Assembly (NCBI RefSeq): GCF_009914755.1
Contig: NC_060927.1
Source: the human T2T-CHM13v2.0 reference genome, Homo sapiens
Length of the DNA stretch: 64,000 bases
Direction: 5' to 3' (one strand)
In this document: positions 1,704 through 24,994 of the stretch, piece after piece
Position numbering within the stretch: the stretch's first letter is position 1
Layout of the letters: each line of letters begins with the position of its first letter
Made by a program: the position numbers and the translations under genes
Notes under the pieces: generated by a model
What the model was told of the DNA's origin: nothing
Databases searched by the model: none
The model's input: only the letters and a program-made list of their open reading frames with translations

Positions 1704-2085
1704 TGTGATTAGTCCATTCTCACACTGCTATAAATACCTGAAACTGGGTAATTTATAAAGAAAAGAGGTTTAATTGACTTACAGCTCCACAAGCTGTACA
1801 GGAAGTATGGCTGAGGATGTCTCAGGAAATTTGCAATCATGGCAGAAGGCAAAGAGGAAGCAGGCACATCTTACATGGTGGGAGTAGGAGAAAGAGAGTG
1901 AGGGGGAAGGTGCTACACACTTTTAAAACACCAGATCTCATGAGAACTCACTCATTATCATGAGAACAGCAACAGGGAAGTCCACCCTCAGTATCCAATC
2001 ACCTCCCACCAGGCCCCTTCTCCAACATTGGTGATTACAATTCAGACATGAGATTTGAGCAGGGAAACAAGTAGAAACCATATCA
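1704..2085 (-). mobile_element. MaLR solo LTR (MSTA-like)
   Basis: TGTGATTAGTCCATTCTCACACTGCTATAAA...AAACCATATCA is the reverse of the MST/THE1 consensus; CTGGT on both flanks. Confidence 0.85.
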
Positions 2086-2669: not shown

Positions 2670-3212
2670 GAGAGGTGGGGGTAACATAATCATGGAGTAT
2701 GTACCCCATGATAAGTAATTTAAAATTTTATTTTTATTAAAATAAACACAGATATATCAAATAAAATGAAGACATTATGTTAATTTTCAGATCAAATATG
2801 GAATTAAAAAATGTCTCTCCTTCAGCAGATTAATTCTCCCAGAACACACACCAATTGACAGAAAACAGCAGGGAGTCTAGACTCAGCAGCCTTACTGAAG
2901 AAGACTTAGAAAATCACAAAGCTTTGAAAGTCACAGAACCAAGAGATAAAGATTGGCATGACTATTTATCCAAAGCAAGTCATCCAAGTGGGTAAAAGTG
3001 CCCATCCTTCTGGTAACAGGATAAACAGATAAACAGTATAGAGATATTACAAGGAAATCTCAAAACACATTGGGATATATATATCATAAAATTTTTTTAT
3101 GTATACAATATATGTATATATATGTGTATATACATATATGCATATTTTGTTTGTTTTGTTCTGTTTTGTTGTAAATAAAGGAGTTGATAAGTAAGGATGC
3201 TCATACTAAAAA

Positions 3213-3422
3213 TTTATTCATTCATTCAACAAATATTTATTGAGCCCCTACTACGTGCCAGGTATTTTTCTATGCAATGAGGACATAGCAGTAAATAAAA
3301 CAAGTCCCTGCTTTCATGGAGTTTGCATTCTTATGGGGGAGACAATAAACAAGCAAACAATAAATATATAACATAATGTCTGATATTTAAAACATTATAA
3401 CAAAAATAAAACAGGATGGTAT
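3213..3422 (-). mobile_element. L2 LINE 3' end, left part (split by the outer provirus)
   Basis: ATTCATTCATTCAACAAATATTTATTGAGC...GTGCCAGG L2 terminus; sequence resumes at 18862. Confidence 0.8.
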
Positions 3423-3884
3423 TAAGGGAGGAGACCACCCCTCACATTGTCTTATGCCCAATTTCTGCCTCGAAAGAAACAAGAAGTAAAAACTAAAAGG
3501 CAGAAATGAAATCCACAGGCAGAAAGCCCAGTGCCACACCCTGGGCCTGGTAGTTAAAGATTGACCCCAACCTAATTGATTATGTTATCTATAGATTACA
3601 GACATTGTATAGAGAAGCACTGTGAAAATCCCTATCCTGTTTTGTTCTGTTCTAATTACTGGTTCATGCAGCCCCCAGTCACGTACCCCCTGCTTGCTCA
3701 ATCGATCCAGACCCTCTCACGTGGACCCCTTTAGAGTTGTGAGCCCTTAAAAGGGACAGGAATTGCTCACTTGGGGAGCTCAGTTGTTGAAGACGTGAGT
3801 CTTGCTGAAGCTCCCGGCCAAATAAAACCCTTTCTTCTTTATCTTGGTGTCTGAGGGGTTTTGTCTGCAGCTTGTCCTGCTACA
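3423..3884 (+). repeat. Outer 5' LTR (LTR2)
   Basis: Homologous to 18395-18857; TATA-like CTTAAAAG near 3747, AATAAA 3821-3826. Confidence 0.95.
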
Positions 3885-3889
3885 TTTCT

Positions 3890-3907
3890 TGGTTCCCTGA
3901 CTGGGAA
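3890..3907 (+). promoter_or_regulatory. Primer binding site, tRNA-Glu (outer provirus)
   Basis: TGGTTCCCTGACTGGGAA is a 17/18 match to the complement of the tRNA-Glu 3' end (TTCCCGGTCAGGGAACCA). Confidence 0.92.
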
Positions 3908-4146
3908 GCGAGGTGATTAACAGACAATCGAGGCAGCCCTTAGGCAGCTTAGGCCTGCCCTGTGGAGCTTCCCTGCGGGGGACTCCGGCCAGCTTGAGCG
4001 ACACGGATCCTGAGAGCACTCCCATGTAGGCAATTGCCCCAGTGGAATGCCTCGCCAGAGCAGTGCATGGCAGGCCCTTGTGGAGGATCAACACAGCGGC
4101 TGAACACCAGGAAGGACATGGCACTTGGAGTCTGGACATCTGAAAC

Positions 4147-4155
4147 TTGGTAAGA
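4147..4155 (+). promoter_or_regulatory. Retroviral leader major splice donor (outer)
   Basis: TTG|GTAAGA in the leader; conserved in the inner copy (GT at 11398-11397 on -). Confidence 0.65.
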
Positions 4156-4431
4156 CTGGTCTTTGGAACTTGCCTGCTCCATTTGAGTAGAAGCGTGGCC
4201 TGATCACCCATGGCGTGCCTGTACCGGCACTTTGGTTTTTGTTTTTGACTTGACTTGGATTGCTTGATACTTTGGTTTTGGTTTTGACCTGGCTTGGATT
4301 TCTTGATACTCTGATTGTGGTTTTGATTCTGGTTTGGTGTAAACTGTAAAATTATGTTTGTGCGCTTTTTACCTGTTCTTTGTTTTGTGGTGTGCTTGTG
4401 GTATGAGCCTGGTGTTTTGTCTTGAAGAAGC

Positions 4432-4520
4432 ATGGGTCAGGCACAAAGTAAGCCCACCCCACTAGGAACTATGTTGAAAATTTTCAAAAAAGGATTTAAG
4501 GGAGATTACGGTGTTACCAT
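4432..4520 (+). pseudogene. gag: Outer gag matrix, N-terminal part
   Basis: MGQAQSKPTPLGTMLKIFKKGFKGDYGVT with MG..S myristoylation-type start; cut by the nested provirus. Confidence 0.85.
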
Positions 4521-4981
4521 TGTAGCAGGACAAGCCACAGACAAAACTCCTCAGACACTGAGTTAAAGAAGGAAGAGGCTTATTTGGCCGGGAGCATTGG
4601 CAAGACTCCTGTCTCAAGAGCTGAGCTCCCCAAGTGAGCAATTCCTGTCCCTTTTAAGGGCTCACAACTCTAAGGGGGTACATGTGAGAGGGTTGTGATC
4701 AATTCAGCAAGCAGGGGGTATGTGACTGGGGGCTTCATGCACCAGTAATCAGAACGAAACAGAATAGGACAGGGATTTTTACAATGCTCTTCCATACAAT
4801 GTCTGGAATCTATAGATAACATAACCGGTTAGGTCAGGGGTCGATCTTTAACTACCAGGACCAGGGCGTGGTGCTGGGCTGTCTGCCTGTGGATTTCATT
4901 TCTGCCTTTTAGTTTTTACTTCTTCTTTCTTTGGAGGCAGAAATTGGGCATAAGACAATATGAGGGGTGGTCTCCTCCTTA
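4521..4981 (-). repeat. Inner 3' LTR (LTR2)
   Basis: Homologous to 11665-12126; purine tract AAAGCAGGGGAA precedes it on the - strand; poly(A) hexamer reads AATAAG. Confidence 0.95.
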
Positions 4982-5012
4982 TTCCCCTGCTTTGAGACTC
5001 TCACTCATTTTA

Positions 5013-7072
5013 TTAGTGGGAGTTCTCACTTTCATTTTTACTACCTATGCCTTCCTGCATGACAGATTGATAGTGATTTATGTAGCACACTTGTGCTGAA
5101 GCATTCTGGTGAACTAGAGTAGCGATGAAACCTTTTGCCATTTGAATGAGTACAGGTAGTAAACAAGGGATCAGTAAGCAGGTTCCTATTAGTACTATAA
5201 TTTTTATTATAAGAGTTTTAAATCCTCCTAGTGCTGGGAATCATTTTTAAACATGGCCTCAGGGTCAAATCCGTGCCACACTTGTACAGGCACATGTGCC
5301 AGTTTAGTCATGTCTTTAACTATATCTTCAACTACTTGACCCTGATCATCTATGTGCAGGCAGCAATTGGTAAGGTTAAATTTTCTACAGACTTTCAGCT
5401 GCTAGCAAGTAGTTAGGAGTCCATCTATTTTGATAGATAGCATTTCTCATCTGAGTTTCTTGCTGGGCCAGAACAGTCAAGGTTTTACCGGTTTTATCAG
5501 TAATGATCTCCAAGACAGCTTGCAACTGTATGATTCGGTTGAGCATGTAAATGGGGGTCTGGTATCACCACGAGCCATCTTATGCCCAAGTGGTAGGCCC
5601 ATAGTATTGTATAATTTTTTCAGGAGGCCGTTTATCATCTTTTTAATTATCTATGGCTATGCTTCACTTTTTGCTGGAAGCATAGAAAGGGAAGCCCAGG
5701 AGTTCGCCTGTTTTTACCGGCAGTAGGAAGGAAGATGGTTTAATAGTGCCAATAACACAACTACCTGTCCACTGGTCAGGCAGCTTAGCGTAGGCTCTAT
5801 GTCCACATATCCAGTATAGCCCAGTGGGGGCTGTCCAGTCCCAGTGGGATTCTGGGTGGGCCTAAATGGTCTGCAACTTTGGAAATTTACTGAATGGATT
5901 TTTCTCTGGGTGGTTTGAACTCCACCACATAGTCTTCCTACAGGAAGGGTGAAGTCCTTCCCCACTCTTGCTATACAGTATTGTCTAATGATTGAGGCTT
6001 TTAGGACCTAGAAGTGATCAGGGTAATTATTTTGGGCCAGGAATTCATCAGGAACTGGGTCTGTAGGTACTAATTCTCGGGCTTCCTACGGCCATTGATC
6101 TCCTGTTACAGTTTCTCCACATACATAACATGAAGTGAGAGTGAGAAACTGGGCTACATGCTCAGCTAACTGCAAAAACAAATTTCTTATTTTTCCTGGA
6201 ATTTCTGGTACTGGCACATTTAGTTTATCATAGAAGGTTTGAAATACTGGCTCAGGAGGGTGTTTATAAACTTTTTCTCAAACCACAATATTTACTTGAA
6301 GATCCAGTCCAGCTCCATCAATTTTTAGGGTTCCCCTTTTTTCTAGCGAGGATTAAGGGGGTTGGTTATTACTAGATCTAAGTGGTTACACTGACCGCTG
6401 GTACAGGAAGGGCCACTTTTCCCTTTCTGAAGGTGGACAGGATTTTTTTTATTTTTTTTATTCAAGTAGCCTAAATGACACAAGAGCAGTATCTACATTT
6501 ATTTTCACACAGACCTAATTCATGATAAATGTACTTATTTTCTGCCATATAGCCTCTTTTCTAATTAACAGAACCACATCTTATTTTTTTTTTTTTGTAT
6601 TTTTAGTAGAGACAGGGTTTCACCGTGTTTTCATATCATTTTTTACTTATTATTATTAATGACAGCACAGGCATCAAACTTCAAGGTGATTTGTTTGGGC
6701 ACCTCTTTTTTTTTCTGTTTTGGCTAACACTTTACTTGTATCATTTATGAGCCCCCACCAGTCTTCAGTTCTTAATCTTATTTTAAAAACTGTGGTCATC
6801 GGAGGCTCAGATGGGTCATAACACACATCAGGTTGGTCATTTCCCGGGCTACATACCTTGTATAGAATAACATTATACAAACAAGTTCTTTTTAGATTTC
6901 CAGCACACTTATAATAACCGTAAAATAATAGGACTGTAGCAACATTTTGTCCTATCTCAGTGACTTGATGTATACACTGGGAACAGCCCTCAGTCTGCAG
7001 AAGGTCAGTTGAAGTCCTTACTGTACAAGTCCAACTTTTAAGGAAAATGAGTCCCACAATGAGTTTTCTCAT
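5013..7072 (-). pseudogene. env: Inner HERV-E-type env, disrupted
   Basis: MRKLIVGLIFLKSWTCTVRTSTDL...CSPGNDQPDVCYDPSEPP; TM remnant with [10 protein letters not shown]; multiple stops and frameshifts. Confidence 0.88.
6586..6629 (-). mobile_element. Tiny internal Alu fragment inside the inner env
   Basis: TTTTTTGTATTTTTAGTAGAGACAGGGTTTCACCGTGTT is the Alu middle linker plus left-arm end; absent from the outer env at ~16755-16765. Confidence 0.8.
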
Positions 7073-7094
7073 GCTTCGGCTGTGCGTGGACCAG

Positions 7095-7725
7095 TCAGCT
7101 TCTGGGTGTGACTGGAGCAGGGCTTGTCGTCTTCTTCAGAGTCACTTTGCAGGGGTTGGCGAAGCTACTGCCATCCATATACGGCTCCCAGTCTACTGAT
7201 GTTTAAGGATGGTCTCAGAGGCTGGGCCCACTAGAATAAACTGAGTCCAATACCTCTACATAGTTATGTTCAACTGGGCTCTCTGATACCGGGAGCAAGG
7301 TGGCGAGGTTTAGGGTGTTGCAAACTTCAATGGTTATGTGGGGATTTTCACAGAGCAAGCTTTGGTATCTGTTAGTCTAGCATTCGTTAGCTAATGATGT
7401 CCTTTGGTATTTATTAAAGTCACCACAGCATGGGGGTACTTTATGTTTAGGTTTTGCTCAAGAGTTAGCTTATCTGCTTCTTGAGCTAACAGGGCCATTG
7501 TTGCCAGGGCCCTTAGACATGGGGGCCAGACTTTGGAAACCCCATCTAGTTGTTTTGAGAGATAGGCCACTGGCCTTGGCCAGGGCCCTACAGTCTAGGT
7601 TAAAACTCCAACTGCCATTTTTCTTTTTCTGACACATAGGGTATAAAGTGTTTTGTCAGGTCAGGTAGCCCCAGGGCTAGGGCTGACATGAGTTTTTCTT
7701 TTAACTCATGAAAAGCTTGTTGCTG
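7095..7725 (-). pseudogene. pol: Inner pol fragment (RT connection to RNase H start, joined to the integrase tail)
   Basis: Reverse-complement homolog of 15665-16300. Confidence 0.75.
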
Positions 7726-7729
7726 TTGG

Positions 7730-9130
7730 TTTTAATAGATGTAGTTTGTCTAATCTACGTTTTTATTAACTGTCACCCACTAAAATATAGACTTAAATCC
7801 TGTAGCTATTTGATCTCAAGCTTTAAATTGATCTGGTATTCCTTGTGGGGCTCCAATTGCATCTAAATAGATGTGAGAGTTGAAAGACCCATAAAGGGCT
7901 TCTCTTGCTTTAAGGTGTCTTATTTTTTCTCCCTCTGGTTGATAAAATGCCAGGGCAAAAGGGATAGCCAAATGGACTAAAGCACAAGTGCCACTCCAGT
8001 TATTCGGCAGAGTGCCCAGTAAAGGTCCACCACAATACCACCACACATCTGCTCAGGGCTGACTGATTGATAAGTTCTTGAAAATTCTTAAGCTCATCGC
8101 ATCCCTTCAGGTTTCCAAGGAATGCTAAGTTTCCTCCCTGTCGTGAGAGACACGAAGTGAACTTAGTGTTGGGAGACGGAAGCTGGATGGCCCTTGGGGG
8201 CTGACCCGCAGGGTGCTGGACTTCGGGATATAGCAGAGAGAGCTTGGCATGACTTATTACTCCAGGCTATAGCATCCTGGAAAAGAGCTGCTGTGCAGCC
8301 TACGCCTGGTCGACTGGAGGACCACCTTAGTGGAAGGGGGACAATTTGGGCCTCTGGCCTGCCATGTGCACAAGCATAACAATTGCTTTTTGTTTAACAT
8401 GCAGATGGAATATTTGATCCATTTTAACCAGGCATTTGCATCTTGGTATCCTATCTTTATTGCTAAAGTTTGTTTTAAGTCTTTAACTTCTATGATCCTC
8501 TAGTAAAATGAATGTATGATTTTAGGAAATTACAAAAACCAGTTGGGGCAGTCCATCCTTGCTCTTTAGTGGCCCACAGAACATTGGACCAACTATGGCA
8601 TGAAAGCTCTACATCGGGGGGCAAGACTCCTGGTTGGCATTGGGGTCTTTATTGAAATCTCCCTGGAATAAATGGTCCTAGTTTACTAATGTCGAGTCTG
8701 AGGAGAGTCAGGATGGAAAGAAGTACTTTTGTGAAGTAGAAAACTGTCTTTGACTTGGCAAGTCTCCACAGGGTATAACAAGGCAAGCATTAAATGCAAT
8801 AGTTGGAGGCAAAATTGACTTGGTTATATTAATAACCAGATGGTCAGCAATAGGACGAGGAATGAAGAAAGAGTAACAGAATAGACGAAAAGAGTTAAAT
8901 TTTTTTTAGCTTTAGTTTAGTAGGGTTTTCCCCTGGGACTATGGCCCACGACTCTGGAGGAGGTGGTGCTTTCTTGACTCGGGTGTGATGAGTCCATCCT
9001 TTTTTGCTGTACGAGCAGCAGTCTTGGTGGTTGGCAGCACAAGGTAGCGTCCTTCCTAGGCTGGCTCGAGTTTTTCTTCTTTCCACCCTTTGATGAGAAC
9101 GTGATCTTCAGGCTGGTGCTGGTTTACTGG
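7730..9130 (-). pseudogene. Inner second retroviral segment: integrase C-terminus plus partial non-HERV-E env
   Basis: LEPA*EGRYL...KGWTHHTRVKK; WWYCGGPLLGTLPNNWSGTCALVHLAIPF. Confidence 0.7.
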
Positions 9131-10587
9131 AAATTCTAGGGGCGGTACCTGTGCTAAAAGACTTTTAGTTTTGAGGGAAAGGAAAGTGGAAGATAAACCA
9201 AGTATATAATTTTTAAGAAATTGACCTTTTGTTTTAAATGTGGGGACCTTGGCAGTGGACTTTAAAGTCTTTGGTGCCTTTTTACTGAGAAATTTCTTTT
9301 AGCCCCTATTTTTATTAGTTTTTAAACCAAAGAAAGCCAAATACCATTTTACATTTAACAATGCTTTATGTATGATTTTTATACCAGATAAGCTAAATTT
9401 TACCGTTATATTAGTGTGTTATTAATGTTAAACCTAATTTTAATAAAACCTTGTAGACATATTTATCCAATTTTTAATGTTTGACCATAAGGTAAGATTT
9501 TATAGCCTCTTTTTAACCTTTTATAATTTTTGCTAAAGCGCAGGTTGGTGCTTTAAGAAAAACCTGCTATGCTTTTATTTTAATGTCCCGTTTACAGAAA
9601 AACTGGATAATACCTCTTTAACTTTAGCCAATGTTTACACACAGAATTTTCTTTCCATTAACATTTTAAAACTTGATTAAACCTTTAAAACAAAATATAC
9701 ATATTTTAACCTTTTAATGTCGGTAAAAATTTGTATTCTTATAATTATTTTACCAAAGGTATATTTCACTTTTCTTATACACCTTGCACATAAACTGTTA
9801 TTATTTTTTTTTTTTTTTAGTTTTACATTCAGGAGGCCTAGTTACTTTTACATTATACAACATTTCCTGCATAAATTCTTTTTTTATAACATTTTTCTCT
9901 TTCACAACTTTCGCAGACAATTCTCCAACATGCTTTAACTTTCAGACTTATTACAAATATTTCTTTCTTTAAACAACCAGTTAATTTATTTCAGGAGAAG
10001 ACTTTACAATATAATACTCTTTTTATATAAATTCTGCCCCCCTTTTTTTTCCTTCTTTTTTTTTCTAACAGAACAGCCCCATACTTTAAGATTTTTGAGT
10101 TAGTAAGCTCCTTTTTCTTTTTTGATTTAGGATAGTTCTGAACTGAACTAATAAGGTGTGCTCACAATGAGGTTTCCTCTAAAAGTTATTTATTTATTTA
10201 TTTATTTTTACTTTTTTTCTGTTAGCAAAGCAGTTGCTGCTACAGATTGAATGCATTTGGGCCATCCGCAGGTTACTGGGTTAAGAATTTTTGATAGGAA
10301 GGCCTCAGTGCTTTCGGGATATGCCCTTGTTTACACAGACAACAAAGTGGTATTGGAGCATTATAGGATTACAGAGAATACCTTCAATTATCAATTACAG
10401 GTTTTAAATTTACCTTGGCTTTTAAAGGAATAGGGTACACTGTTTTTTTTTCTTAACTACCTGTATATATCTCTCTTTCTCTCTCTCTTTGACTTTATCT
10501 CTCTCTCTTTGACTTTTCTTTGCCTCTGTCTCTTCCTCTCTCTCTTTTCTGTCTCTCTCTCTCTGCCTCGCTTATGCTGCAGTTCTC

Positions 10588-10873
10588 TCAACCACTGTGG
10601 AGAGATCCAAAACCAGCTGTAACCAAGCATCTATGTATGGGAACTGGTCTGGGTGCCCTGGCTTTACAGGTTACCTTGTGCCATACCTTTGAAACAAGGG
10701 ACCTGTCCAGGCTTCCTTCTGATGGCCAACCCACCTCTAATGCTGGCCAGTCTATTTTACACAAAGTTTTAAGTTTTCCTGGTGTCATAGTACCCCATAG
10801 TCTCCCTTAAATCCTTTCTTGAAATTTTTCAACATAGTTCCTAGTAAGCTGGGCTTATTTGTGCCTGACCCAT
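10588..10873 (-). pseudogene. gag: Inner gag matrix remnant (frameshifted)
   Basis: MGQAQ start at 10873, early frameshift, then MTPGKLKTLCKIDWPALEVGWPSEGSLDRSLV. Confidence 0.85.
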
Positions 10874-11037
10874 GCTTCTTTGAGACAAAACGCTACACTC
10901 ACACCACACGCACACCACAAAACAAAGAACAGGTAAAAAGGGCACACACACAGTTTTGCAGTTTACACCAAATTAAAATCAAAACCAAAATCAGAGTATC
11001 CAGAAATCCAAGCCAGGTCACAACCAAAACCAAAGCA

Positions 11038-11395
11038 TCAAGCAATCCAAGTCAAGTCAAAAACAAAAACCAAAGTGCCGGTACGGGCACACCATGGGTG
11101 ATCAGGCCATGCTTCCACTCAAATGGAGTAGGCAAATTCCAAAGACCAATCCTGTCAAGCAATTCAAACCAAGTCAAAACCAAAACCAAAGTGCCGATAA
11201 AGGCATGCCATGCGTGATCAGGCCACACTTCCACTTAAATGGAGTGGGCAAGTTCCCAAGACCGGTCCTGTCAAGCAATTCAAACCAAGTCAAAACCAAA
11301 ACCAAAATCAAACCGAAGTGCCGATAAAGGCACACCTTGGGTGATCAGGCCATGCTTCCACTCAAATGGAGTGGGCAAGTTCTCAAGACTAGTCT
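11038..11395 (-). repeat. Three tandem ~117-bp units in the inner leader
   Basis: TCAAGCAAT...AAGTGCCG...GTGATCAGGCCA...AAATGGAGT recurs from 11038, 11155 and 11271. Confidence 0.9.
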
Positions 11396-11641
11396 TACCA
11401 AATTTCAGATGTCCAGATTCCAAGTGCCCGTTCCATCCCGGTGTTCAGCCACTGCATTGATCCTCCATGGGGGTCTGCCGCGCGCTGCTCTGGCAAGACT
11501 TCCCACCGGGGCAAATGCCTATCTGGGAGTGCTCTCAGGATCTGCATCACTCGGGCTGATCGGAGTCCCCCATAGCGATGTTCCACAGGGCAGGCTTAAG
11601 CTGCCTAAGGAGCTGCCTCGACCATCCGCCAATCACCTCGC

Positions 11642-11659
11642 TTCCCGGTCAGAGAACCA
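11642..11659 (-). promoter_or_regulatory. Primer binding site, tRNA-Glu (inner provirus)
   Basis: Plus strand TTCCCGGTCAGAGAACCA is a 17/18 match to the tRNA-Glu 3' end. Confidence 0.92.
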
Positions 11660-11664
11660 AGAAA

Positions 11665-12126
11665 TGTAGCAGGACGAGCTGCAGACAAAACTCCTCAGAC
11701 ACCGAGTTAAAGAAGGAAGAGGTTTATTTGGCTGGGAGCATCGGCAAGACTCCTGCCTCAAGAGCCAAGCTCCCCAAGTGAGCAATTCCTGTCCCTTTTA
11801 AGGGCTCACAACTCTAAGGGGGTCCACATGAGAGGGTCGTGATCAATTGAGCAAGCAGGGGTTATGTGACTGGGGGCTGCATGCACCAGTAATCAGAATG
11901 AAACAGAACAGGACAGGGACTTTTACAATGCTCTTCCATACAATGTCTGGAATCTATAGATAACATAACCGGTTAGGTCAGGGGTTGATCTTTAACTACC
12001 AGGCCCAGGGCGTGGCACTGGGCTCTCTGCCTGTGGATTTCATTTCTGCCTTTTAGTTTTTACTTCTTCTTTCTTTGGAGGCAGAAATTGGGCATAAGGC
12101 AATATGAGGGGTGGTCTCCTCCCTTA
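11665..12126 (-). repeat. Inner 5' LTR (LTR2)
   Basis: Adjacent to the PBS; AATAAA intact (TTTATT at 11723-11728). Confidence 0.95.
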
Positions 12127-12335
12127 CTATGACACCAGGAAAACTTAGAACTTTGTGTGAAATAGACTGGCCAGCATTAGAGGTGGATTGGCCATCAGAA
12201 AGAAGGCTGGACAGGTCCCTTGTTTCAAAGGCGTGGCACAAGGTAACCTGTAAGCCAGGGCACCCAGACCAGTTCCCATACATAGACGCTTGGTTACAGC
12301 TGGTTTTAGACCAACCCCCCGCCACAGTGGTCTAA
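12127..12335 (+). pseudogene. gag: Outer gag matrix, C-terminal part
   Basis: MTPGKLRTLCEIDWPALEVDWPSERRLDRSLVSKAWHKVTCKPGHPDQFPYIDAW, in frame with 4432-4520 once the insert and one TSD copy are removed. Confidence 0.85.
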
Positions 12336-12361
12336 CAGCAGCATAAGTGGCTGGCAGAGGC

Positions 12362-12585
12362 AAGGAAAGACCAGCAGAGAGAGAAAGAGGAAGAGACAGA
12401 GAGACAAAGAGGGAATCAAGGAAAGAGAGAAAGAGAGAGAGAAAGAGAGAGGCAGAGAGAGAGAGAAAGAGAGAGGCAGAGAGAGACAGAGAAAGAGAGA
12501 GGCAGAGAGAGAGAAAGAGACAGAGGCAAAAGGAAAGTCAAAGAGAAAGAGATAGAAAATCAAAGAAAGAAAGAAAGAGAGAGAT
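12362..12585 (+). repeat. GA-rich polypurine low-complexity tract
   Basis: GAGAGAAAGAGAGAGGCA-like units; a shorter CT-rich counterpart lies at ~10470-10570. Confidence 0.9.
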
Positions 12586-14279
12586 ATACAAGTAGTTAAG
12601 AAAAAAAAACAGTGTACCCTATTCCTTTAAAAGCCAAGGTAAATTTAAAACCTATAATTGATAATTAAAGGAATTCTCTGTAACCCTGTAACACTCCAAT
12701 ACCACTTTGTTGTCAGTGTAAACAAGGGTGTATCCCGAAAGCGCTGAGGCCTTCCTATCAAAAATCCTTAACCCAGTAACCCTTGGATGGCCCAAATGCA
12801 TTCAATCTGTAGCAGCAACTGCTTTGCTAACAGAAAAAAGTAAAAAAAATAACTTTTAGAGGAAACCTCATTGTTAGCACACCTCACCAACTCAGAAGTA
12901 TCCTAAGAAAAAAAAAAAAACGAGGATGACTTAACATTAACCACTGAAAATTCCCTTAACCCAGCAGGTTTCCTAACAGGGGATCTAAATCTTAATTACA
13001 ACACAAAGGTCGGACCAGACCTAGGAGGAACTCCCTTCAGGACAGGATGATTGATGGTTCCTCCCAGGTAATTGAAGATTAAAAAAAAAAAGCCACCTAT
13101 ATAAATTCTAAGTTAATTTGGACAAAACAAGGTCTTATTAATAGCAAAGGATAATTAAAACCCAAACTTACAAGGTTTTCAACAAAGGTAAAGTTTGCTA
13201 AAAGTTAACAGTGTACCATGTATTATAGTAACTTCTAATCTTGTGGCCTTAGACAATCTAGTCCACAGACATAAAAGAAATTTACTTTGGAAAACAATGG
13301 TTATCATCTTCAAAAAAAAAATGGGAAAAAAAAGTAGGGGGGCAGAACTTATGTAAAAAGGATGTTATATGGTAAATTCTTGTCCTGAAATAAATTAATT
13401 GGTTGTTTAAAGAAAGAAATGTTTGTAATAAGTCAGAAAATTGAGGCATGTCAAAGAATTGTCTGTGAAAGTCATGAAAGAGAAAAAAACTTATAAAAAA
13501 AGAATTTATGCAAGAAATGTTGTATAATTTAAAAGTAACTAGGCCTCCTGAATGTAAAACTGTTGAAAAAACAGTTTATGTGCAAGGTGTATAAGGAAAG
13601 CAAAATATACCTTTGGTAAAAGGATTATAAGGAAGCATAAGAATATAAATTTTTACCTACATTAAAAGGGTAAAAAAAATTTTGTTTTGAAGATTTAAGC
13701 AAGTTTTAAAACTTTAATTTTATATATATAAAAAAATTCTGTATGTAAACATATTAGCTAAAGTTAAAGGGGTATCATCCAGTTTTTCTGTGAACTGGAC
13801 ATTAAAGTAAAAACACAACAGGTTTTTCTTAAAGCACTAACCTGCTCTTTAACAAAGATTATAAAAGGTTAAAAAGAGTCTATAAAAATCTTACCTCATG
13901 GTCCAACATTAAAAATTGAATAAATATGTACACAAAGTTTTATTAAAACTAAGTTTAACATTAATAGCACACCAATATAAAGGTGAAATTTAGCTTATCT
14001 GGTATAAAAATCATACAAGAAGCACTATTAAATATAAAATGGTGTTTGGCTTTCCTTGGTCTAAAAACTAATAAAAAATAGATGCTAAAGGAAATTTCTC
14101 AGCAGAAAGGCACCAAGGACTATCAAATCCATTGCTAATGTCCCCACATTTAAAACAAAAGGTCAGTTTCTTAGAAATTATATACTTGGTTTATCTTCCA
14201 CTTTCCTTTCCCTCAAAACTAAAAGTCTTTTAGCACAGGTACCACCCCTAGAATTTCCAGTAAACCAGCACCAGCCTGA

Positions 14280-15665
14280 AGATCACGTTCTCATCAAAGG
14301 GAGGAAAGAAGAAAAACTCGAGCCAGCCTAGGAAGGAACCTACTTTGTGCTGCTAACTACCGAGACTGCTGTTCGTACAGCGGAAAAGGGATGAACTCAT
14401 CACACCCGAGTCAAAGTGCCACCCCCTCCAGAGTCGTGGGCCATAGTCCCAGGGGAAAACCCTACCAAACTAAAGCTAAGAAAAATTTAACTCTTTCATC
14501 TCTTCTATTACTCTTCTTTCCTTGCTCTATTGTTGACCATCTGGTTATTAACATAACCAAGTCAATTTTGCCTCCAACTATTGCATTTAATGCTTGCCTT
14601 GTTATATCCTGTGGGGACTTGCCAAGTCAAAGACAGAGCTCTACTTCAGAAAAGTACCTCTGTCCCTCCTGACTCTCCTCAGACTGGGCATTAGTAAATT
14701 AGGACGTTTTAATCTAGGGAAATTTTGATAAAGACTCCAATGTCAACCAGGAGTTTGCTCCTCAACATAGAGCTTTTATGCCATAGTTGGTCCAACATTC
14801 TGTGGACCACTAAAGAGCAAGGATGGACTGCCCAAACCGGCTTTTGTAATTTCCCAAAATACATTCATTTTACTAGAGGATCATAGAAGTTAAAGACTTA
14901 AAACAAACTTTGGCAATTAAAACAGGATACCAAGATGCAAATGCCTGGTTGGAATGGATCAAATATTTCATCTGCACGTTAAACAAAAGCAATTGTTATG
15001 CTTGTGCGCATGGCAGGCCAGAGGCCCAGATTGTCCCCTTTCCACTAAGGTGGTCCTCCAGTCAACCAGGCATGGGCTGCATAGTAGCTCTTTTCCAGGA
15101 TTCTACAGCCTGGAGTAATAAGTCGTGCCAAGCTCTCTCTGCTATGTCCCAAAATCTGGCACCCTGTGGGTCAGCCGCTGAGGGCCATCCAGCCTCCGTC
15201 TCCCAACACTACGTTCATTTCGTGTCTCTCATGACAGGGAGGAAACTTAGCATTCCTTGGAGACCTGAAGGGATGCAGTGAGCTTAAAAAGTTTCAAGAG
15301 CTTATCAGTCAGTCAGCCCTTGTTCATCCCCGAGCGGATGTGTGGTGGTATTGTGGTGGACCTTTCCTGGGCACACTCTGCTGAATAACTGGAGTGGCAC
15401 TTATACTTTAGTCCAATTGGCTATCCCTTTCACCCTGGCATTTCAAAAACCAGAGGGAGGAAAAATAAGACATCGTAAAGCGAGAGAGAAGCCCTTTATG
15501 GATCTTTTGACTCTCACGTCTATTTAGATGCAACTAGAGTCCCTCAGGGAATACCATATCAATTTAAAGCTTGAAATCAAATAGCTGCAGGATTTGAGTC
15601 AATATTTTGGTAGGTGACAGTTAATAAAAATGTAGATTGAATAAACTACATCTATTACAACCAAC
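14280..15665 (+). pseudogene. Outer second retroviral segment: integrase C-terminus (GPY-type) plus partial env with CYAC
   Basis: KLEPA*EGTYFVLLTTETAVRTAEKG*THHTRVK; NKSNCYACAHGRPEAQIVPFPL; NNWSGTYTLVQLAIPF. Confidence 0.72.
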
Positions 15666-16300
15666 AGCAACAAGCTTTTCACAAGTTAAAAGAAAACCTC
15701 ATGTCAGCCCCAGCCCTGGGGCTACCTTACCTGACAAAACACTTTACACTCTATGTGTCAAAAAGAGAAAAAAAATGGCAGTTAGAGTTTTAACCCAGAC
15801 TATGGGGCCCTGGCCAAGGCCAGCGGCCTATCTCTCAAAACAACTAGACGGGGTTTCCAAAGGCTAGCCCCCATGTCTAAGGGCCCTGGCAGCAACGGCC
15901 TGTTAGCACAAGAAGCAAATAAACTAACCCTTAGGAAAACCTGAATATAAAGGCCCCCCATGCTGTAGTAACTTTAATGACTACCAAAGGACACCATTGG
16001 TTAACAAATGCTAGATTAACCAACTACCAAAGCTTGCTATGTGAAAATCCCCGCATAACCATTGAAGTTTGCAACACCCTAAACCTCGCCACCTTGCTCC
16101 TGGTATCAGAGAGCCCAGTTGAACATAACTGTCTAGAGGTGTTGGACTCAGTTTATTCTAGCAGGCCTAACCTCCGACACCATTCTTAAACATCAGTAGA
16201 CTGTGAGCAGTACGTGGACGGGAGCAGCTTTGCCAACCCCTGCAAAGTGACTCTGAAGAAGATGACAAGCCCTGCTCCAGTCACACCCGGAAGCTGACTG
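15665..16300 (+). pseudogene. pol: Outer pol fragment (RT connection to RNase H start)
   Basis: VLTQTMGPWPRPAAYLSKQLDGVSKG; KGHHWLTNARLTNYQSLLCENP; YVDGSSFAN. Confidence 0.8.
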
Positions 16301-16319
16301 GTCCACACATGGCCGAAGC

Positions 16320-18370
16320 ATGAAAAAACTCATCGCGGGACTCATTTTCCTTAAAATTTGGACTTTTACAATAAGGACTTCAACTGACCTTCCTCAGACT
16401 GAGGACTGTTCCCAGTGTATACATCAAGTCACTGAGGTCGGACAAAAAAATTGCTACAGTCCTATTATTTTATGATTATTATAAGTGTACCAGGACTCTA
16501 AAAAAAAAAAGAAACTTGTTTGTATAATGCTATTCTATGCAAGGTATGTAGCCCAGGAAATGACCAACCTGATGTGTGTTATGACCCATCTGAGCCTCCC
16601 ATGACCACAGTTTTTGAAACAAGATTAAGGACTAAGAACTGGTGGGGGCTCATAAACGATACGAGTAAAGAGTTAGCCAAAACAAAAGAAAAAGGGGTGC
16701 CCAAACAAGTCACCTTGAAGTTTGATGCCTGTGCTGTCATTAATAGTAATAAGTTAGGAATAGGATGTGGTTCTCTTAATTAGGAAAGAGGCTATATGGC
16801 AGAAAATAAGTACATATGTCATGAATTAGAACTGTGTGGAAATGAATGTGGATACTGGTCTTGTGTCATTTAGGCTACTTGGATAAAAAATAAAAAGGAT
16901 CCTGTCCACCTTCAGAAAGGGAAAAGTGGCCCTTCCTGTACCAGTGGTCAGTGTAACCCCTTAGAACTAGTAATAACCAACCCCCTTAATCCTCGCTGGA
17001 AAAAAGGGGAGCGTGTAACCCTAGGAATCAATGGGGCTGGACTGGATCCTCAAGCAAATATTGTGGTTTGAGGAGAAGTTTATAAACACTCTCCAGAGCC
17101 AGTATTTCAAACCTTCTATGATAAACTAAATGTGCCAGTACCAGAAATTCCAGGAAAAACAAGAAATTTGTTTTTGCAATTAGCTAAGCACATAGCCCAG
17201 TCTCTCAATGTCACTTCATGTTATGTATGTAGAGGAACTGTAATGGGAGATCAATGGCCATGGGAAGCCCGAGAATTAGTACCTACAGACCCAGTCCCTG
17301 ATGAATTCCCGGCCAAAAAGAATCACCCTGATAACTTCTAGGTCCTAAAAGCTTTAATCATTAGACAATACTGTATAGCAAGAGTAAGGAAGGACTTCAC
17401 AATTCCTGTGGGAAGACTCAGCTGCTTTGGACAAAAACTGTATTATAATAATACTACAAAAATAGCCACCTAGTGGAGCTCAAACCACACTAAGAAAAAT
17501 CCATTTAGTAAATTCCCAAAGTTGAAAACTGTGTGGACCCACCCGTTAGACAGCCCCCACTGGATTATACTGGATATGTGGGCATAGACCTTATGCCAAA
17601 TTGCCCAACCAGTGGGCAGGTAGTTGTGTTATTGGCACTATTAAGCCATTTTTCTTCCTACTACACATAAAGACAGATGAACTCCTGGGCTTCCCTGTCT
17701 GTGTTTCCCTCAAAAAAGAAGCATAGCTATAAAAAATTAAAAAGATGATGAATGGCCTCCTGAGAGAATCATACAATATTATTGGCCTGGTACTTGGGCA
17801 CAAGATGGCTCATGAACCCATATTTACATGCTCAACTGAATGATACGGTTACAAGCTGTCTTAGAAATAATCACTAATAAGACCGGCAGAGCCTTGACTA
17901 TTCTGGCCTGGCAAGAAACTCAGATGAGAAATGCTATCTATCAAAATAAATTGGCTCTCAACTACTTGCTAGCAGCTGAAGGAAGGGTCTGCAGAAAATT
18001 TAACCTTACTAATTCCTGTCTACACATAGATGATTAAGGGCAAGTAGTTGAAGACATAGTTAGAAATATGACAAAACTGACACATGTGCCCATGCAAGTG
18101 TGGCATAGATTTGATCCTAGGGCCATGTTTGGAAAATGATTCCCAGCGCTAAAGAGATTTAAAACTCTTATAATAGGAGTTATAATAGTAATAGAAACCT
18201 TCTTACTGCTCCCTTGTTTGCTACATGCATTTCTTCAAATGAAAAAAAGCTTCATCACTACCTTAGTTCACCAAAGTGCTTCAGCACAAGTGTACTATAT
18301 GAATCACTGTCATTCTGTCTTGCAAGAAGACACAGGTAGCAAAAATGAAAGTGAGAACTCCCACTATTGA
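16320..18370 (+). pseudogene. env: Outer HERV-E-type env, disrupted
   Basis: MKKLIAGLIFLKIW...; LNVTSCYVC; immunosuppressive-domain-like [18 protein letters not shown]; many stops. Confidence 0.88.
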
Positions 18371-18394
18371 GTGAGAGTCTCAAAGTCGGGGGAG

Positions 18395-18857
18395 TAAGGG
18401 AGGAGACCACCCCTCACATTGTCTTATACCCAATTTCTGCCTCCAAAGAAAGAAGAAGTAAAAACTAAAAGGCAGAAATGAAATCCACAGGCAGACATCC
18501 CGGCGCCAGGCCCTGGGCCTGGTAATTAAAGATTGACCCCTGACCTAACCGGTTATCTTATCTATAGATTATAGACATTGTATAGAAAAGCACTGTGAAA
18601 ATCCCTGTCCTGTTCTGTTCCATTGTAATTACCAGTGCATGCAGCCCCCAGCCACATACCCCCTGCTTGCTCAATCGATCATGACCCTCTCACGCGGACC
18701 TTCTTAGAGTTGTGAGCCCTTAAAAGGGACAGGAATTGCTCACTCGGGGATCTCGGTTGTTGGAGACGTGAGTCTTGCCGAAGCTCCCAGCTGAATAAAG
18801 CCCTTTCTTCTTTAACTCGTTGTCTGAGGGGTTTTGTGTGCAGCTTGTCCTGCTGCA
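18395..18857 (+). repeat. Outer 3' LTR (LTR2)
   Basis: Homologous to 3423-3884; AATAAA at 18794-18799. Confidence 0.95.
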
Positions 18858-18861
18858 GTAT

Positions 18862-19170
18862 GATAGAGATTGCTGGGGAAGCTGCTCTTTTAACTGGGGT
18901 GCTCAAGGAAAGCCATCCAAAGAGGTGAAGTGAGAGAATCAGCCCATCTGAGGGAAGAGTGTTCCCTCAGAGGGAACAGTCAATGCAAAGTGCATCAAGT
19001 GGAAGCACATGTGGCTCGTTTGAGACATAAGGGATCAGTGTGGCTAGAATGGAGTAAGCAAAAGAAGCCTGATGGGAGGTGAGTTGAAGAGGTCATAGGA
19101 GCCAAATATAAGCAGAGCTTATATACCATGGAGGGCTTTGGATTTTATTCTAAGTGTGGTGGAATATGTT
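18862..19170 (-). mobile_element. L2 LINE, right part (continuation of 3213-3422)
   Basis: GATAGAG...GGGAAGAGTGTTCC...AGAGGGAACAG...GGATTTTATTCTAAGTG is L2-like and colinear with the left part. Confidence 0.75.
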
Positions 19171-20034
19171 TAATAGGCCATTGACCTGGTTTGATTTAAG
19201 AAGTTCTTAAGGACAAACAGGACTTTCTAAATAGTTATTGTGTTTTCTTGTACTTTCATGCTACTACAAGAAGTTATCTGTTTAATATAAGACATATCAA
19301 ACAAAAGCGGAGAGGGACAGGGTCAGAAACTGGAGCAGAAGATAGAAAAAGTTCTCTCTTCAATGGCTTAGAAGTTGGCCCATGTGAAGACAGGTGAACA
19401 GTGTTATGAAGCGAATTGCTTTCTAGGCCTACCTTCTATAACTCTGATACTCACTCAAATGAGAATTATCATGAAGTTAATGCTAGATATTTTACAATTT
19501 GTTTTCTGATTTTAATTAAAATATCTATTCATTATAAGACATTTGGAAAGTAGAGAAAAGTAGAAGAAAGAAAATGAAAACACATATAATCCCATCAACC
19601 CCCCAAAAAAATCACCATTAAAAATATTGGCCCATCTCTATTCTGTCTTTTCTTTGATACACATTTATACAAAATGAGATTACATCATATTTTTGTAAGT
19701 TCATTCTGCAAGCCTGTATTAAAGGTGAAATAGTAATAGGCCAATGTTTGCCTCCTGACTGTGAGAAAAGCAGCTTTGTTACACACATGAAGCATGAGGG
19801 GGCTAGCTCTATGCAAGTAATGACAGTCCGAGGAGTAGCTAGAGGTCAGCTCTGTTCAGTCTAAAAGACAAAAAGTCCTGAGTCCCATTCAGTCCTGAGT
19901 GCCTCAGTACAGTCAGCCAAAGCTGGATTCACCTCACCCAAGCCTGCATTTCCTCGTAGAGAGAATCAGAGAAAGTTAGATCATTTCATCTCAAAAGGAA
20001 AAAGTATGTTATCTCCAGCTTCCAATTCTTAGAG

Positions 20035-21965: not shown

Positions 21966-22378
21966 TGTGTTACACTGCCCAAGGATTCATTGCTCCTAGC
22001 TCTTGGAAATTTGTTTGACATCACTCAGCTAGCAACCCCTTTGGGAATTATTTTGGCAGAAGAGAGTCACCTTTGCCTTATCCATGGTCATACTCCCTAC
22101 CAGGGGCAGACTACGTCCAATGACTGGCTAATAAAAAAGGCCTGGCTCCTCACCTCAATTCAAGACAACCCTGAAAGGCCCTCCTATCTTCAGAACTTGT
22201 AACAGGGTCAGCTGACATCTTCAACAATATTGCATTACAAATCAACTTCTCCCTCTGCCCAACCTTGGTTATTTCTCTACCCCCCACTGGAGTTAATCCT
22301 GAGTGCACTCCTTAATAAACTTCCTACATGCAAATATCTATCTGGGAGTCTGATTTTCAAAAATCCTAACCTGCTCCA
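21966..22378 (+). mobile_element. ERVL LTR (LTR16-like)
   Basis: ...CACTCCTTAATAAACTTCCTACATGCAAATATCTATCTGGGAGTCTG...AATCCTAACCTG. Confidence 0.6.

Positions 22379-23791: not shown

Positions 23792-24205
<414 letters not shown>

Positions 24206-24651: not shown

Positions 24652-24994
<343 letters not shown>

What the first reader, a model, noticed from the sequence alone, without database searches (positions are those of the whole stretch)
3423..18857. Provirus nested antisense inside a sister provirus forms a multi-kilobase inverted repeat upstream of ACP3
Seen: a full LTR2/Harlequin element (4521-12126, -) sits inside another (3423-18857, +). Segment 4521-10790 is therefore the reverse complement of 12127-18857 (arms of ~6.3-6.7 kb around a ~1.3 kb loop), and 3423-4520 is the reverse complement of 10787-12126. 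Established: long intramolecular dsRNA is a substrate for ADAR1 and the sensors MDA5/PKR, and ERV dsRNA drives viral mimicry after demethylation. Inference: one transcript from the outer 5' LTR to the outer 3' LTR poly(A) site would fold into a duplex about 20 times longer than an inverted Alu pair, next to a very active prostate locus. I do not know of a description of this locus, but I cannot search the literature.
Basis: partly seen in the sequence, partly recalled or inferred. Interest (0 to 1): 0.85.

Follow-up and report, generated by a model that had tools for sequence, protein, structure and literature searches.

The report
Retrovirus fossil nested backwards in sister
Two dead copies of the same ancient retrovirus family sit one inside the other in opposite directions 7 kb upstream of the human ACP3 gene, forming a real 6-kb imperfect inverted repeat that could make double-stranded RNA only if it is transcribed, which nothing here shows.

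Summary
An outer provirus (3423-18857, +) has a perfect 4-bp target-site duplication. It is split at one point, 636 bp past its 5' LTR, by an inner provirus of the same family (4521-12126, -) that has its own LTR pair and its own 4-bp duplication. An uninterrupted relative on another chromosome shows that the two outer halves abut exactly. The inner LTR pair is about half as diverged as the outer pair (K2P 0.060 vs 0.111).

The main arms (4521-10790 and 12127-18857) form 5,438 Watson-Crick pairs, 88.7% of aligned positions, around a 1,336-nt loop. Cofolding strongly favours the duplex in 16 of 16 blocks.

Both copies are coding-dead mosaics that fit Harlequin/LTR2.

The functional reading is untested. 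No transcript is annotated here. No 300-nt window reaches the 96% pairing used in the field for MDA5-type ligands. The two complementary pairs cross each other, like a pseudoknot. Convergent LTR promoters are an equally plausible route to dsRNA.

Inverted-repeat ERV dsRNA is a known class. ACPP is already listed as an LTR2-associated gene, but I found no description of the nesting.

Verdict: a real, ordinary nested insertion with conditional dsRNA potential and modest interest.

The parts
3419..3422 (.). Left copy of the host target-site duplication of the outer provirus (GTAT)
   Evidence: GTAT lies directly before the outer 5' LTR and again at 18858-18861
3423..3884 (+). Outer provirus 5' LTR (462 nt), with AATAAA at 3821
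   Evidence: 89.6% identical to 18395-18857; alignment; for the poly(A) hexamer; K2P 0.111 to the 3' LTR
3890..3907 (+). Outer primer-binding site, 18 nt starting TGG, 5 nt after the LTR
   Evidence: Sequence read. Its assignment to tRNA-Glu is recalled, not tested.
3885..4520 (+). Outer leader and start of gag, up to the insertion point. Together with the 5' LTR this is segment A, complementary to 10791-12126.
   Evidence: 87.9% over aligned positions; collinear with L004 586-1680
4517..4520 (.). Left copy of the target-site duplication made by the inner provirus (CCAT)
   Evidence: The right copy is CTAT at 12127-12130. The homologous uninterrupted site has one copy only, in the inner provirus itself and in L004.
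4521..4978 (-). Inner provirus 3' LTR. The canonical AATAAA is replaced by AATAAG.
   Evidence: 94.3% identical to 11665-12122
4979..11664 (-). Inner provirus internal region: coding-dead mosaic. Gag_MA remnant at 10591-10806, IN-C-like at 9014-9118, RNase H-like at 7373-7594.
   Evidence: the longest sense-strand open frame is 153 aa
4521..10790 (+). Arm B' of the inverted repeat (antisense of the inner provirus as read on the + strand)
10791..12126 (+). Loop of the main hairpin. This is segment A' (inner leader plus inner 5' LTR, antisense on +), complementary to 3423-4520. It contains a 116-nt tandem repeat at 11038-11389.
11642..11659 (-). Inner primer-binding site (18 nt)
   Evidence: Sequence read. 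The tRNA assignment is recalled.
11665..12126 (-). Inner provirus 5' LTR, with AATAAA at 11728 on the - strand. It faces the outer 5' LTR, so the two promoters converge.
   Evidence: K2P 0.060 to the inner 3' LTR
12127..12130 (.). Right copy of the inner target-site duplication (CTAT)
12127..18394 (+). Outer provirus internal region after the insertion. Gag_MA at 12129-12332, GA-rich low-complexity stretch at 12367-12556, IN-C-like at 14269-14376, RNase H-like at 15659-15757, env TM remnant at 17840-18034.
   Evidence: collinear with L004 1680-8245
18395..18857 (+). Outer provirus 3' LTR, with AATAAA at 18794. Its end lies 6,990 bp upstream of the ACP3 transcription start (25847).
   Evidence: hub gene table for the start site
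12127..18857 (+). Arm B of the inverted repeat
18858..18861 (.). Right copy of the host target-site duplication of the outer provirus (GTAT)

Best explanation
This is the fossil of two successive germ-line integrations. A Harlequin-type provirus (LTR2-flanked, HERV-E backbone, class I/gamma-like) integrated into host DNA about 7 kb upstream of what is now ACP3. Later a second copy of the same family, not derived from the first, integrated in the opposite orientation 636 bp downstream of the first copy's 5' LTR.

The 6.3/6.7-kb inverted repeat is a geometric by-product of that event. It has since decayed neutrally to about 89% complementarity. Both copies are coding-dead.

Shown: the nesting, both duplications, the order of events and the strong thermodynamic preference for arm pairing if both arms are in one RNA.

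Inferred: in normal tissues the composite is most likely silent or fragmentarily transcribed and has no function. Its dsRNA potential is conditional on LTR derepression. If it is realised, an imperfect Alu-like hairpin (a substrate for ADAR or PKR) or a sense/antisense duplex from the convergent outer and inner 5' LTRs is more likely than a clean 6-kb MDA5 ligand.
For: Nesting:
- Perfect GTAT/GTAT host duplication, and CCAT/CTAT duplication around the inner copy.
- The homologous site is single-copy in the inner provirus and in an uninterrupted relative, L004.
- The two halves of the outer provirus map to L004 586-1680 and 1680-3497, abutting at one base.

Order of events: inner LTR pair K2P 0.060 against outer pair 0.111.

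Independent origin: each LTR and the internal 2 kb have at least 40 scored genomic copies at 86-94% identity, with 1,345, 1,299 and 591 first-look candidates. Inner against outer is only about 88-89%.

Family:
- Gag_MA is above the Pfam cut-off in both copies.
- IN-C-like and RNase H-like remnants are sub-threshold and in non-canonical order.
- An env TM remnant is present.
- The published Harlequin mosaic and its defective gag/pro/pol fit this picture (PMC4724089 and PMC5753468, passages).
- ACPP is listed among genes with an LTR2 within 10 kb upstream (PMC4419796, passages).

Dead coding capacity: no sense-strand frame longer than 153 aa.

Duplex:
- 5,438 Watson-Crick pairs, 88.7% of aligned positions. 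The longest perfect helix is 69 bp, and 18 perfect helices are at least 33 bp.
- Cofold ddG is -302 to -499 kcal/mol in 16 of 16 400-column blocks, against -5 to -32 for non-cognate pairings. Two of 18 blocks were dropped beforehand because one side had fewer than 100 nt.

Silence:
- No gene or transcript is annotated at 1-25846 (hub table).
- CpG observed/expected is 0.21-0.42.
- Long predicted dsRNAs are reported to be mostly intergenic and unedited, probably for lack of transcription (PMC11838218 section 10).
Against: Nothing here measures transcription, methylation or editing, so 'silent' is inferred from missing annotation and from general knowledge.

Read-through is not obviously blocked. 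0 of 11 internal AATAAA and only 4 of 14 internal ATTAAA hexamers on the + strand have a GU/U-rich downstream element by a crude test that 3 of 3 LTR AATAAA signals pass.

All four LTRs keep long invariant blocks. LTR2 elements are known alternative promoters (PMC4379568, passages).

HERV-E env RNA is reported in prostate cancer without locus assignment (PMC12663314, passage).

The family name was not tested against a repeat library, since none was available.
Confidence: 0.8

Rival explanations
1. A single transcript from the outer 5' LTR to the outer 3' LTR poly(A) site is made in some tissue or after demethylation. It folds into a duplex of about 6 kb that engages ADAR1, PKR or MDA5 at a biologically meaningful level.
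For: Pairing is strongly favoured energetically in 16 of 16 blocks. There are 18 perfect helices of at least 33 bp, the stated minimum for PKR (PMC13730806 passages). No strong internal AATAAA signal was found. Inverted-repeat ERVs in one transcript do form MDA5 filaments and induce interferon when over-expressed (MRPL19 3'UTR; PMC12695637 passages).
Against: No transcript is annotated (hub table). The RNA would have to run 15 kb past 25 poly(A) hexamers. 0 of 6,569 300-column windows reach 96% Watson-Crick pairing. A pairs with A' before B is made, and the A/A' and B'/B pairings cross, which hinders full zippering (inference). After DNMT inhibition, MDA5-bound RNA was reported to be mainly inverted Alus, not ERVs (PMC7615088 passage). 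A retrovirus-like transcript may be spliced, which would remove the arms in the nucleus (inference).
Confidence: 0.07
2. Convergent-promoter model. When the LTRs are derepressed, the outer 5' LTR (+ strand) and the inner 5' LTR (- strand) fire towards each other across 4521-11664. They give perfectly complementary sense/antisense RNAs (cis-NAT type) rather than, or as well as, an imperfect hairpin.
For: The geometry is shown. The two 5' LTRs face each other about 7.8 kb apart. The inner 3' LTR has lost its AATAAA, so inner transcripts could run on into the outer leader. Bidirectional ERV transcription is the usual proposed source of ERV dsRNA, and cis-NATs rank among the most immunogenic dsRNAs (PMC7615088, PMC12695637, PMC13730806 passages).
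Against: There is no evidence that either LTR is active. Both LTRs are old, with CpG observed/expected of 0.25-0.42. Convergent polymerases interfere with each other (general knowledge).
Confidence: 0.1
3. The relevant function is cis-regulatory. One of the LTRs, most likely the outer 3' LTR at -7 kb in the same orientation as ACP3, acts as an enhancer or alternative promoter for ACP3. On this reading the inverted repeat is irrelevant.
For: ACPP is among the LTR2-associated genes driving a statistical prostate signal (PMC4419796 passages). LTR2 serves as promoter or enhancer at EDNRB, APOC1, CD5 and AMY1 (PMC4379568 passages).
Against: The published association is statistical and based on presence within 10 kb only. 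The RefSeq ACP3 models all start at or after 25847 (hub table). An androgen-response-element scan gave 6 matches against 5.6 expected, none in an LTR.
Confidence: 0.07
4. The structure is not a nested integration but an inverted segmental duplication or an assembly artefact.
For: None beyond the inverted symmetry itself.
Against: Each element has its own 4-bp duplication. The two LTR pairs differ two-fold in divergence. The arms are only about 89% alike and differ by several indels of 31-243 nt. The outer halves abut at one base of an independent copy. The window contains no N.
Confidence: 0.01

Closest known systems
Inverted-repeat ERV pair in the MRPL19 3'UTR (IR-ERV; PMC12695637, passages read)
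   Same: Two ERV-derived copies in opposite orientation that can pair within one RNA. That pair was shown to form MDA5 filaments in vitro and to induce interferon-stimulated genes when over-expressed.
   Different: The MRPL19 pair lies inside an expressed, exported 3'UTR and is edited. The ACP3-upstream pair is intergenic with no annotated transcript. It consists of two whole proviruses, one inside the other, and its arms are about 20 times longer.
Inverted Alu pairs (IR-Alu), the main ADAR1 substrates
   Same: Imperfect complementarity of roughly the same quality: here 88.7% Watson-Crick, with mismatches about every 9 nt. Both arise as a by-product of retroelement insertions in opposite orientation.
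   Different: About 300 bp against about 6,300 bp. Alus are abundant in introns and 3'UTRs and are demonstrably transcribed and edited. This locus has neither shown.
Long predicted intergenic dsRNAs from inverted LINE pairs (dsRNAscan; PMC11838218, section 10 read)
   Same: Long inverted retroelement copies that are mostly intergenic, unedited and probably untranscribed.
   Different: Those were selected at over 96% pairing. This pair is about 89% and would fall outside that class.
Harlequin / HERV-E (LTR2) proviruses (PMC4724089, PMC5753468, PMC4379568, passages read)
   Same: LTRs of about 460 nt. An 18-nt primer-binding site. A gamma-type matrix remnant. A mosaic interior lacking recognisable gag-pro-pol order. 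A HERV-E-like env remnant. Hundreds of genomic copies. LTR divergence within the published range.
   Different: Ordinary members are single proviruses or solo LTRs. Here one member is the integration target of another. Secondary integrations are a described category in PMC4724089 (figure legend), but there 'often an LTR', not a whole sister provirus.

Membership tests
Nested LTR-element insertion (provirus within provirus) | The inner element is complete, with its own pair of LTRs in the same orientation | tested here: met
   4521-4978 and 11665-12122 are direct repeats, 94.3% identical, aligned
Nested LTR-element insertion (provirus within provirus) | The inner element is flanked by a short target-site duplication made of host-element sequence | tested here: met
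   CCAT at 4517-4520 and CTAT at 12127-12130, 3 of 4 bases identical. The site is single-copy in two uninterrupted relatives.
Nested LTR-element insertion (provirus within provirus) | The two halves of the host element are collinear with an uninterrupted copy and abut at one point | tested here: met
   Window 3423-4514 maps to L004 586-1680 and window 12125-13957 maps to L004 1680-3497
Nested LTR-element insertion (provirus within provirus) | The guest is younger than the host | tested here: met
   LTR-pair K2P is 0.060 (inner) against 0.111 (outer). Excluding CpG sites it is 0.045 against 0.089.
Harlequin / HERV-E group (LTR2-flanked class I ERV) | LTRs belong to the LTR2 family | tested here: inconclusive
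   No repeat library was available. Indirect support: ACPP is listed as having an LTR2 within 10 kb upstream (PMC4419796), which fits only the outer 3' LTR. The LTRs have more than 1,000 first-look genomic candidates and 587 tag matches.
Harlequin / HERV-E group (LTR2-flanked class I ERV) | Primer-binding site complementary to tRNA-Glu | not tested
   An 18-nt site starting TGG sits 5 nt after each 5' LTR. Its match to tRNA-Glu is recalled from memory and was not compared with a tRNA sequence here.
Harlequin / HERV-E group (LTR2-flanked class I ERV) | Gamma-type (class I) gag and env remnants | tested here: met
   Gag_MA PF01140 scores 48.3 and 34.3 bits against a cut-off of 30. The env TM piece matches class I fusion ectodomains, best E 5.8e-5.
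Harlequin / HERV-E group (LTR2-flanked class I ERV) | Mosaic interior (published as LTR2-HERVE-MER57I-LTR8-MER4I-HERVI-HERVE-LTR2), defective in gag/pro/pol | tested here: inconclusive
   An IN-C-like remnant lies upstream of an RNase H-like remnant in both copies, but both hits are below Pfam cut-offs. No capsid, protease, RT or integrase core was detected in 70 ORF pieces or 6 read-through frames. The component families could not be named without a repeat library.
Long, highly paired dsRNA of the MDA5-ligand class (over 300 bp and over 96% paired; PMC11838218, PMC7006430) | Length over 300 bp | tested here: met
   Arms of 6,270 and 6,731 nt
Long, highly paired dsRNA of the MDA5-ligand class (over 300 bp and over 96% paired; PMC11838218, PMC7006430) | Over 96% of nucleotides paired | tested here: not met
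   0 of 6,569 300-column windows reach 96% Watson-Crick, and the best is 93.3%. Counting G-U, 277 of 6,569 windows reach it, with a best of 96.7%.
Long, highly paired dsRNA of the MDA5-ligand class (over 300 bp and over 96% paired; PMC11838218, PMC7006430) | Both arms present in one exported transcript | not testable with these tools
   No expression data were available. No transcript is annotated over 3423-18857 (hub table).
Edited inverted-repeat hairpin (ADAR substrate, IR-Alu-like) | Two copies of one repeat family in opposite orientation with roughly 80-90% complementarity | tested here: met
   88.7% Watson-Crick over aligned positions; ddG -302 to -499 kcal/mol per block
Edited inverted-repeat hairpin (ADAR substrate, IR-Alu-like) | Clustered A-to-I editing in both arms | not testable with these tools
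   No RNA data were available
cis-natural antisense pair from convergent promoters | Two promoters facing each other with overlapping transcription units | tested here: inconclusive
   The outer 5' LTR (+) and inner 5' LTR (-) face each other. Promoter activity was not testable.

The most novel reading that the evidence does not exclude
On loss of LTR silencing (DNMT inhibition, SETDB1/HUSH loss, or spreading of the very active ACP3 chromatin domain in prostate), this one locus would become one of the largest single-locus sources of ERV dsRNA in the human genome. It would act by two routes at once. The first is a multi-kilobase imperfect hairpin on read-through RNA. The second is a perfectly paired sense/antisense duplex of up to 7.6 kb from the convergent outer and inner 5' LTRs. 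It could also contribute to the unassigned HERV-E env signal reported in prostate cancer.
Probability: 0.08. Interest if true: 0.6.

Novelty: new member of a known kind. Interest (0 to 1): 0.3.

Why it matters
If the composite were transcribed, it would be a defined, uniquely mappable locus for asking whether whole-provirus inverted repeats, rather than inverted Alus, can feed ADAR1, PKR or MDA5 in viral mimicry. It sits next to a prostate-specific gene of clinical interest.

As it stands, it is a clean textbook example of ERV-into-ERV integration with datable order. It also warns that length alone does not make an immunogenic dsRNA: pairing quality, topology, transcription and export all have to be met. 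Here one of these is not met and the others are unknown.

Tried and rejected
1. Inverted duplication or assembly artefact. Rejected by the two separate duplications, the different LTR divergences and collinearity with L004.

2. Recent gene conversion between the arms. No long near-identical tract: the longest perfect run is 69 bp, and the best 1,000-column window is 90.4%.

3. Known structured RNA or miRNA in the region. Rfam gave 0 matches at gathering thresholds over 3000-19500.

4. Androgen-response elements in the LTRs. 6 matches in the window against 5.6 expected; 51 of 100 shuffles had at least 6; none was in an LTR.

5. Genome-wide census of + - - + LTR signatures. The pattern search found 587 tag matches (303 forward, 284 reverse; control 0) but lists only 100, so the census is partial. 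Among those 100, only this locus shows the signature within 20 kb. One other opposite-strand pair within 20 kb (C9) turned out to be two solo LTRs 14 kb apart.

6. Locus names in print. 'HARLEQUIN_3q22.1', 'HERVE_3q22.1' and the prefixes 'HARLEQUIN_3q', 'HERVE_3q' and 'HERVEA_3q' gave 0 papers. Supplementary tables are not searched, and locus-level HERV expression tables usually sit there.

7. Pfam on natural ORF pieces and on frames read through with X. No capsid, protease, RT, integrase core or TLV_coat was found. HTH_36, ParE_like, Auts2 and DUF6736 hits are far below cut-off and are taken as chance.

9. The T2T epigenome preprint (10.64898/2026.03.19.712972, passages) held nothing on this locus.


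Full report
**1. Observation**

- 13312-18857 is the reverse complement of 4521-10064 (85.2% over 5,663 columns, gaps counted).
- 12125-12924 continues the same diagonal against 10108-10792.
- 3420-4514 is the reverse complement of 10792-12129.
- There are two direct LTR pairs: 4521-4978 with 11665-12122 (94.3%), and 3423-3884 with 18395-18857 (89.6%).
- All four LTRs align over their full length of about 460 nt, with a mean column identity of 88%.

**2. Is it a nested integration?**

Four independent tests say yes.
- The outer element is flanked by a perfect 4-bp duplication, GTAT (3419-3422 and 18858-18861).
- The inner element is flanked by CCAT (4517-4520) and CTAT (12127-12130). The homologous uninterrupted site carries a single such tetranucleotide in the inner provirus itself and in an independent family member fetched from another chromosome, L004.
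- The two halves of the outer provirus map to L004 586-1680 and 1680-3497. They abut at one base of an uninterrupted copy, and the rest is collinear to the 3' LTR.
- The inner LTR pair is about half as diverged as the outer pair: K2P 0.060 against 0.111, or 0.045 against 0.089 without CpG sites. The guest is therefore younger than the host.

At 2.2e-9 substitutions per site per year, these values give roughly 13 and 25 million years. With the 0.3% per million years quoted for HERV-E (PMC4379568, passage) they give roughly 19 and 34. The absolute ages are soft. The ratio is the robust part.

An inverted duplication or an assembly error is excluded by these tests.

**3. What the elements are**

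Neither copy has a sense-strand open frame longer than 153 aa.

Pfam on 70 natural ORF pieces and on six frames read through with X at stops found only the following:
- A gamma-type matrix remnant in both copies, above cut-off: 12129-12332 (+) and 10591-10806 (-).
- A sub-threshold MLV-integrase C-terminal-like remnant.
- Further downstream, a sub-threshold RNase H-like remnant.

That order is not the canonical one. The two sub-threshold remnants occur at homologous positions in both copies, which is expected of homologues and is not independent support.

A 65-aa piece near the 3' end (17840-18034) matches class I fusion TM ectodomains, best E 5.8e-5.

This fits the published description of Harlequin: an LTR2-flanked HERV-E-backbone mosaic that is usually defective in gag, pro and pol and retains a HERV-E-like env (PMC4724089 and PMC5753468, passages read). 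ACPP is listed among the genes with an LTR2 within 10 kb upstream (PMC4419796, passages read). Only the outer 3' LTR, at -7.0 to -7.5 kb, fits that.

I could not name the family against a repeat library. The tRNA-Glu assignment of the 18-nt primer-binding sites (3890-3907; 11642-11659) is recalled, not tested.

**4. Relation of the two copies**

'Sister' holds at family level only.
- The inner LTR has other genomic copies at up to 94% identity, the outer LTR at up to 93%, and an internal 2-kb segment of the outer at up to 92%.
- Each of these searches scored 40 places, out of 1,345, 1,299 and 591 first-look candidates.
- Inner against outer is 88-89%.

The inner copy therefore came from elsewhere, not from its host. 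No tract suggests later homogenisation. The longest perfect run is 69 bp, and the best 1,000-column window is 90.4%.

**5. Quality of the potential duplex**

In a global alignment, the main arms 4521-10790 and 12127-18857 give:
- 5,438 Watson-Crick pairs, 695 mismatches (519 transitions; 261 would be G-U in a + strand RNA) and 735 gap columns.
- 88.7% of aligned positions, 92.9% with G-U, and 79.2% of all columns.
- 608 perfect helices with a median of 6 bp and a maximum of 69 bp. 18 are at least 33 bp.

Most gap columns lie in the first 1.5 kb of the outer arm. They come from a GA-rich expansion and from a stretch of about 350 nt that is missing from the inner copy but present in L004.

I cofolded cognate 400-column blocks. 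16 blocks were examined, and two of 18 were dropped beforehand because one side had fewer than 100 nt. All 16 gave ddG of -302 to -499 kcal/mol relative to the arms folded alone, against -5 to -32 for non-cognate pairings. If both arms are in one RNA, pairing is strongly favoured.

By the field's working definition of a likely MDA5 ligand (over 300 bp and over 96% paired; PMC11838218 section 10, PMC7006430 passages), the duplex is long but not highly paired. 0 of 6,569 300-column windows reach 96% Watson-Crick, and the best is 93.3%. In quality it resembles an inverted Alu pair. In length it is about 20 times larger.

**6.

- *Topology.* The four segments lie in the order A (3423-4520), B' (4521-10790), A' (10791-12126), B (12127-18857). 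A pairs with A' and B' pairs with B, so the pairings cross like a pseudoknot. A and A' are both transcribed before B. An early A/A' helix would then enclose B' and hinder full zippering with B. This is inference.
- *Convergent promoters.* The outer 5' LTR (+) and the inner 5' LTR (-) face each other. If both fired, their overlapping RNAs would be perfectly complementary, the cis-NAT type that ranks as most immunogenic in PMC12695637 (passages). The inner 3' LTR has lost its AATAAA, which now reads AATAAG. Inner transcripts could therefore run on into the outer leader.
- *Processing signals.* A 15-kb read-through must pass 11 AATAAA and 14 ATTAAA hexamers on the + strand. By a crude GU/U-rich downstream test that 3 of 3 LTR AATAAA signals pass, 0 of the 11 and 4 of the 14 look usable. 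Read-through is neither blocked nor assured.
- *Annotation.* The gene table supplied with the finding lists no transcript before 25847.

**7. Known context**

Inverted-repeat ERVs within one transcript are an established class of MDA5-activating dsRNA (MRPL19 3'UTR; PMC12695637 passages). Bidirectional ERV transcription is the standard model for ERV dsRNA (PMC7615088 and PMC13730806, passages). After DNMT inhibition, MDA5-bound RNA was reported to be mainly inverted Alus rather than ERVs (PMC7615088 passage). Long predicted dsRNAs are mostly intergenic and unedited, probably for lack of transcription (PMC11838218 section 10).

I found no paper describing the nested structure at this locus. Supplementary tables are not searched, and locus-level HERV tables may list it there. 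HERV-E env RNA is reported in prostate cancer without locus assignment (PMC12663314 passage). This is a lead only.

**8. How unusual is it?**

A 30-nt LTR tag has 587 genomic matches at up to 2 mismatches, with 0 for the control. Only 100 are listed. Among these, this is the only place with the + - - + signature within 20 kb. The one other opposite-strand pair within 20 kb is two solo LTRs. The census is therefore partial.

A rough expectation for random insertion of about a thousand family members into a few hundred 8-kb proviruses is a few tenths of an event. One such locus is unremarkable. This is inference from copy numbers in PMC4419796 and PMC4724089.

**9. Verdict**

The most likely account is an inert, neutrally decaying by-product of two integrations (confidence 0.8).

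The dsRNA idea is physically sound but conditional on transcription that is not shown. The duplex fails the pairing criterion for the most immunogenic class. A convergent-LTR route is at least as plausible as the hairpin.

I rate it as a new member of a known kind, with modest interest.

Noticed in passing
window 24675-24994 and 25286-25596: An inverted pair of repeats of about 320 nt (80.2% over 323 columns, about 290 nt apart) lies directly upstream of the ACP3 start site at 25847. Further copies of the same repeat are at 777-1095 and 23832-24137. From their length they look like Alus, but the family was not tested.
   Followed up: no
window 4521-4978 (- strand): The inner 3' LTR reads AATAAG where the other three LTRs have AATAAA. 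The inner provirus therefore lacks a canonical poly(A) signal at its own 3' end.
   Followed up: partly
window 11038-11389 and 4229-4326: The inner leader carries 2.9 copies of a 116-nt tandem unit. This adds 243 nt that the outer leader lacks. The outer has only a 39-nt sub-repeat array at the homologous place.
   Followed up: no
window 12367-12556 and 10470-10569: There is a GA-rich low-complexity stretch just after the matrix remnant. It is 96 + 31 nt longer in the outer copy than in the inner copy.
   Followed up: no
window 12932-13291; L004 2478-2862: About 350 nt present in the outer copy and in the independent relative L004 are missing from the inner copy (gap between 10068 and 10115). 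This is a deletion in the inner element, not an insertion in the outer.
   Followed up: partly
L004 3497-3796: The uninterrupted relative on contig C10 carries about 300 extra bases absent from both window copies. It is probably a later small insertion and was not identified.
   Followed up: no
L001-L003 (G000:C9:100352001-100382000), local 7550-8006 and 22104-22567: Two solo LTRs of the same family lie in opposite orientation 14 kb apart (87% alike), in a region dense with repeats of about 300 nt. No internal proviral sequence lies between them.
   Followed up: yes
window 1708-2019 and 22645-22932: A weak, old inverted repeat (67.6% over 321 columns) brackets the whole composite at a distance. 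The family is unknown.
   Followed up: no
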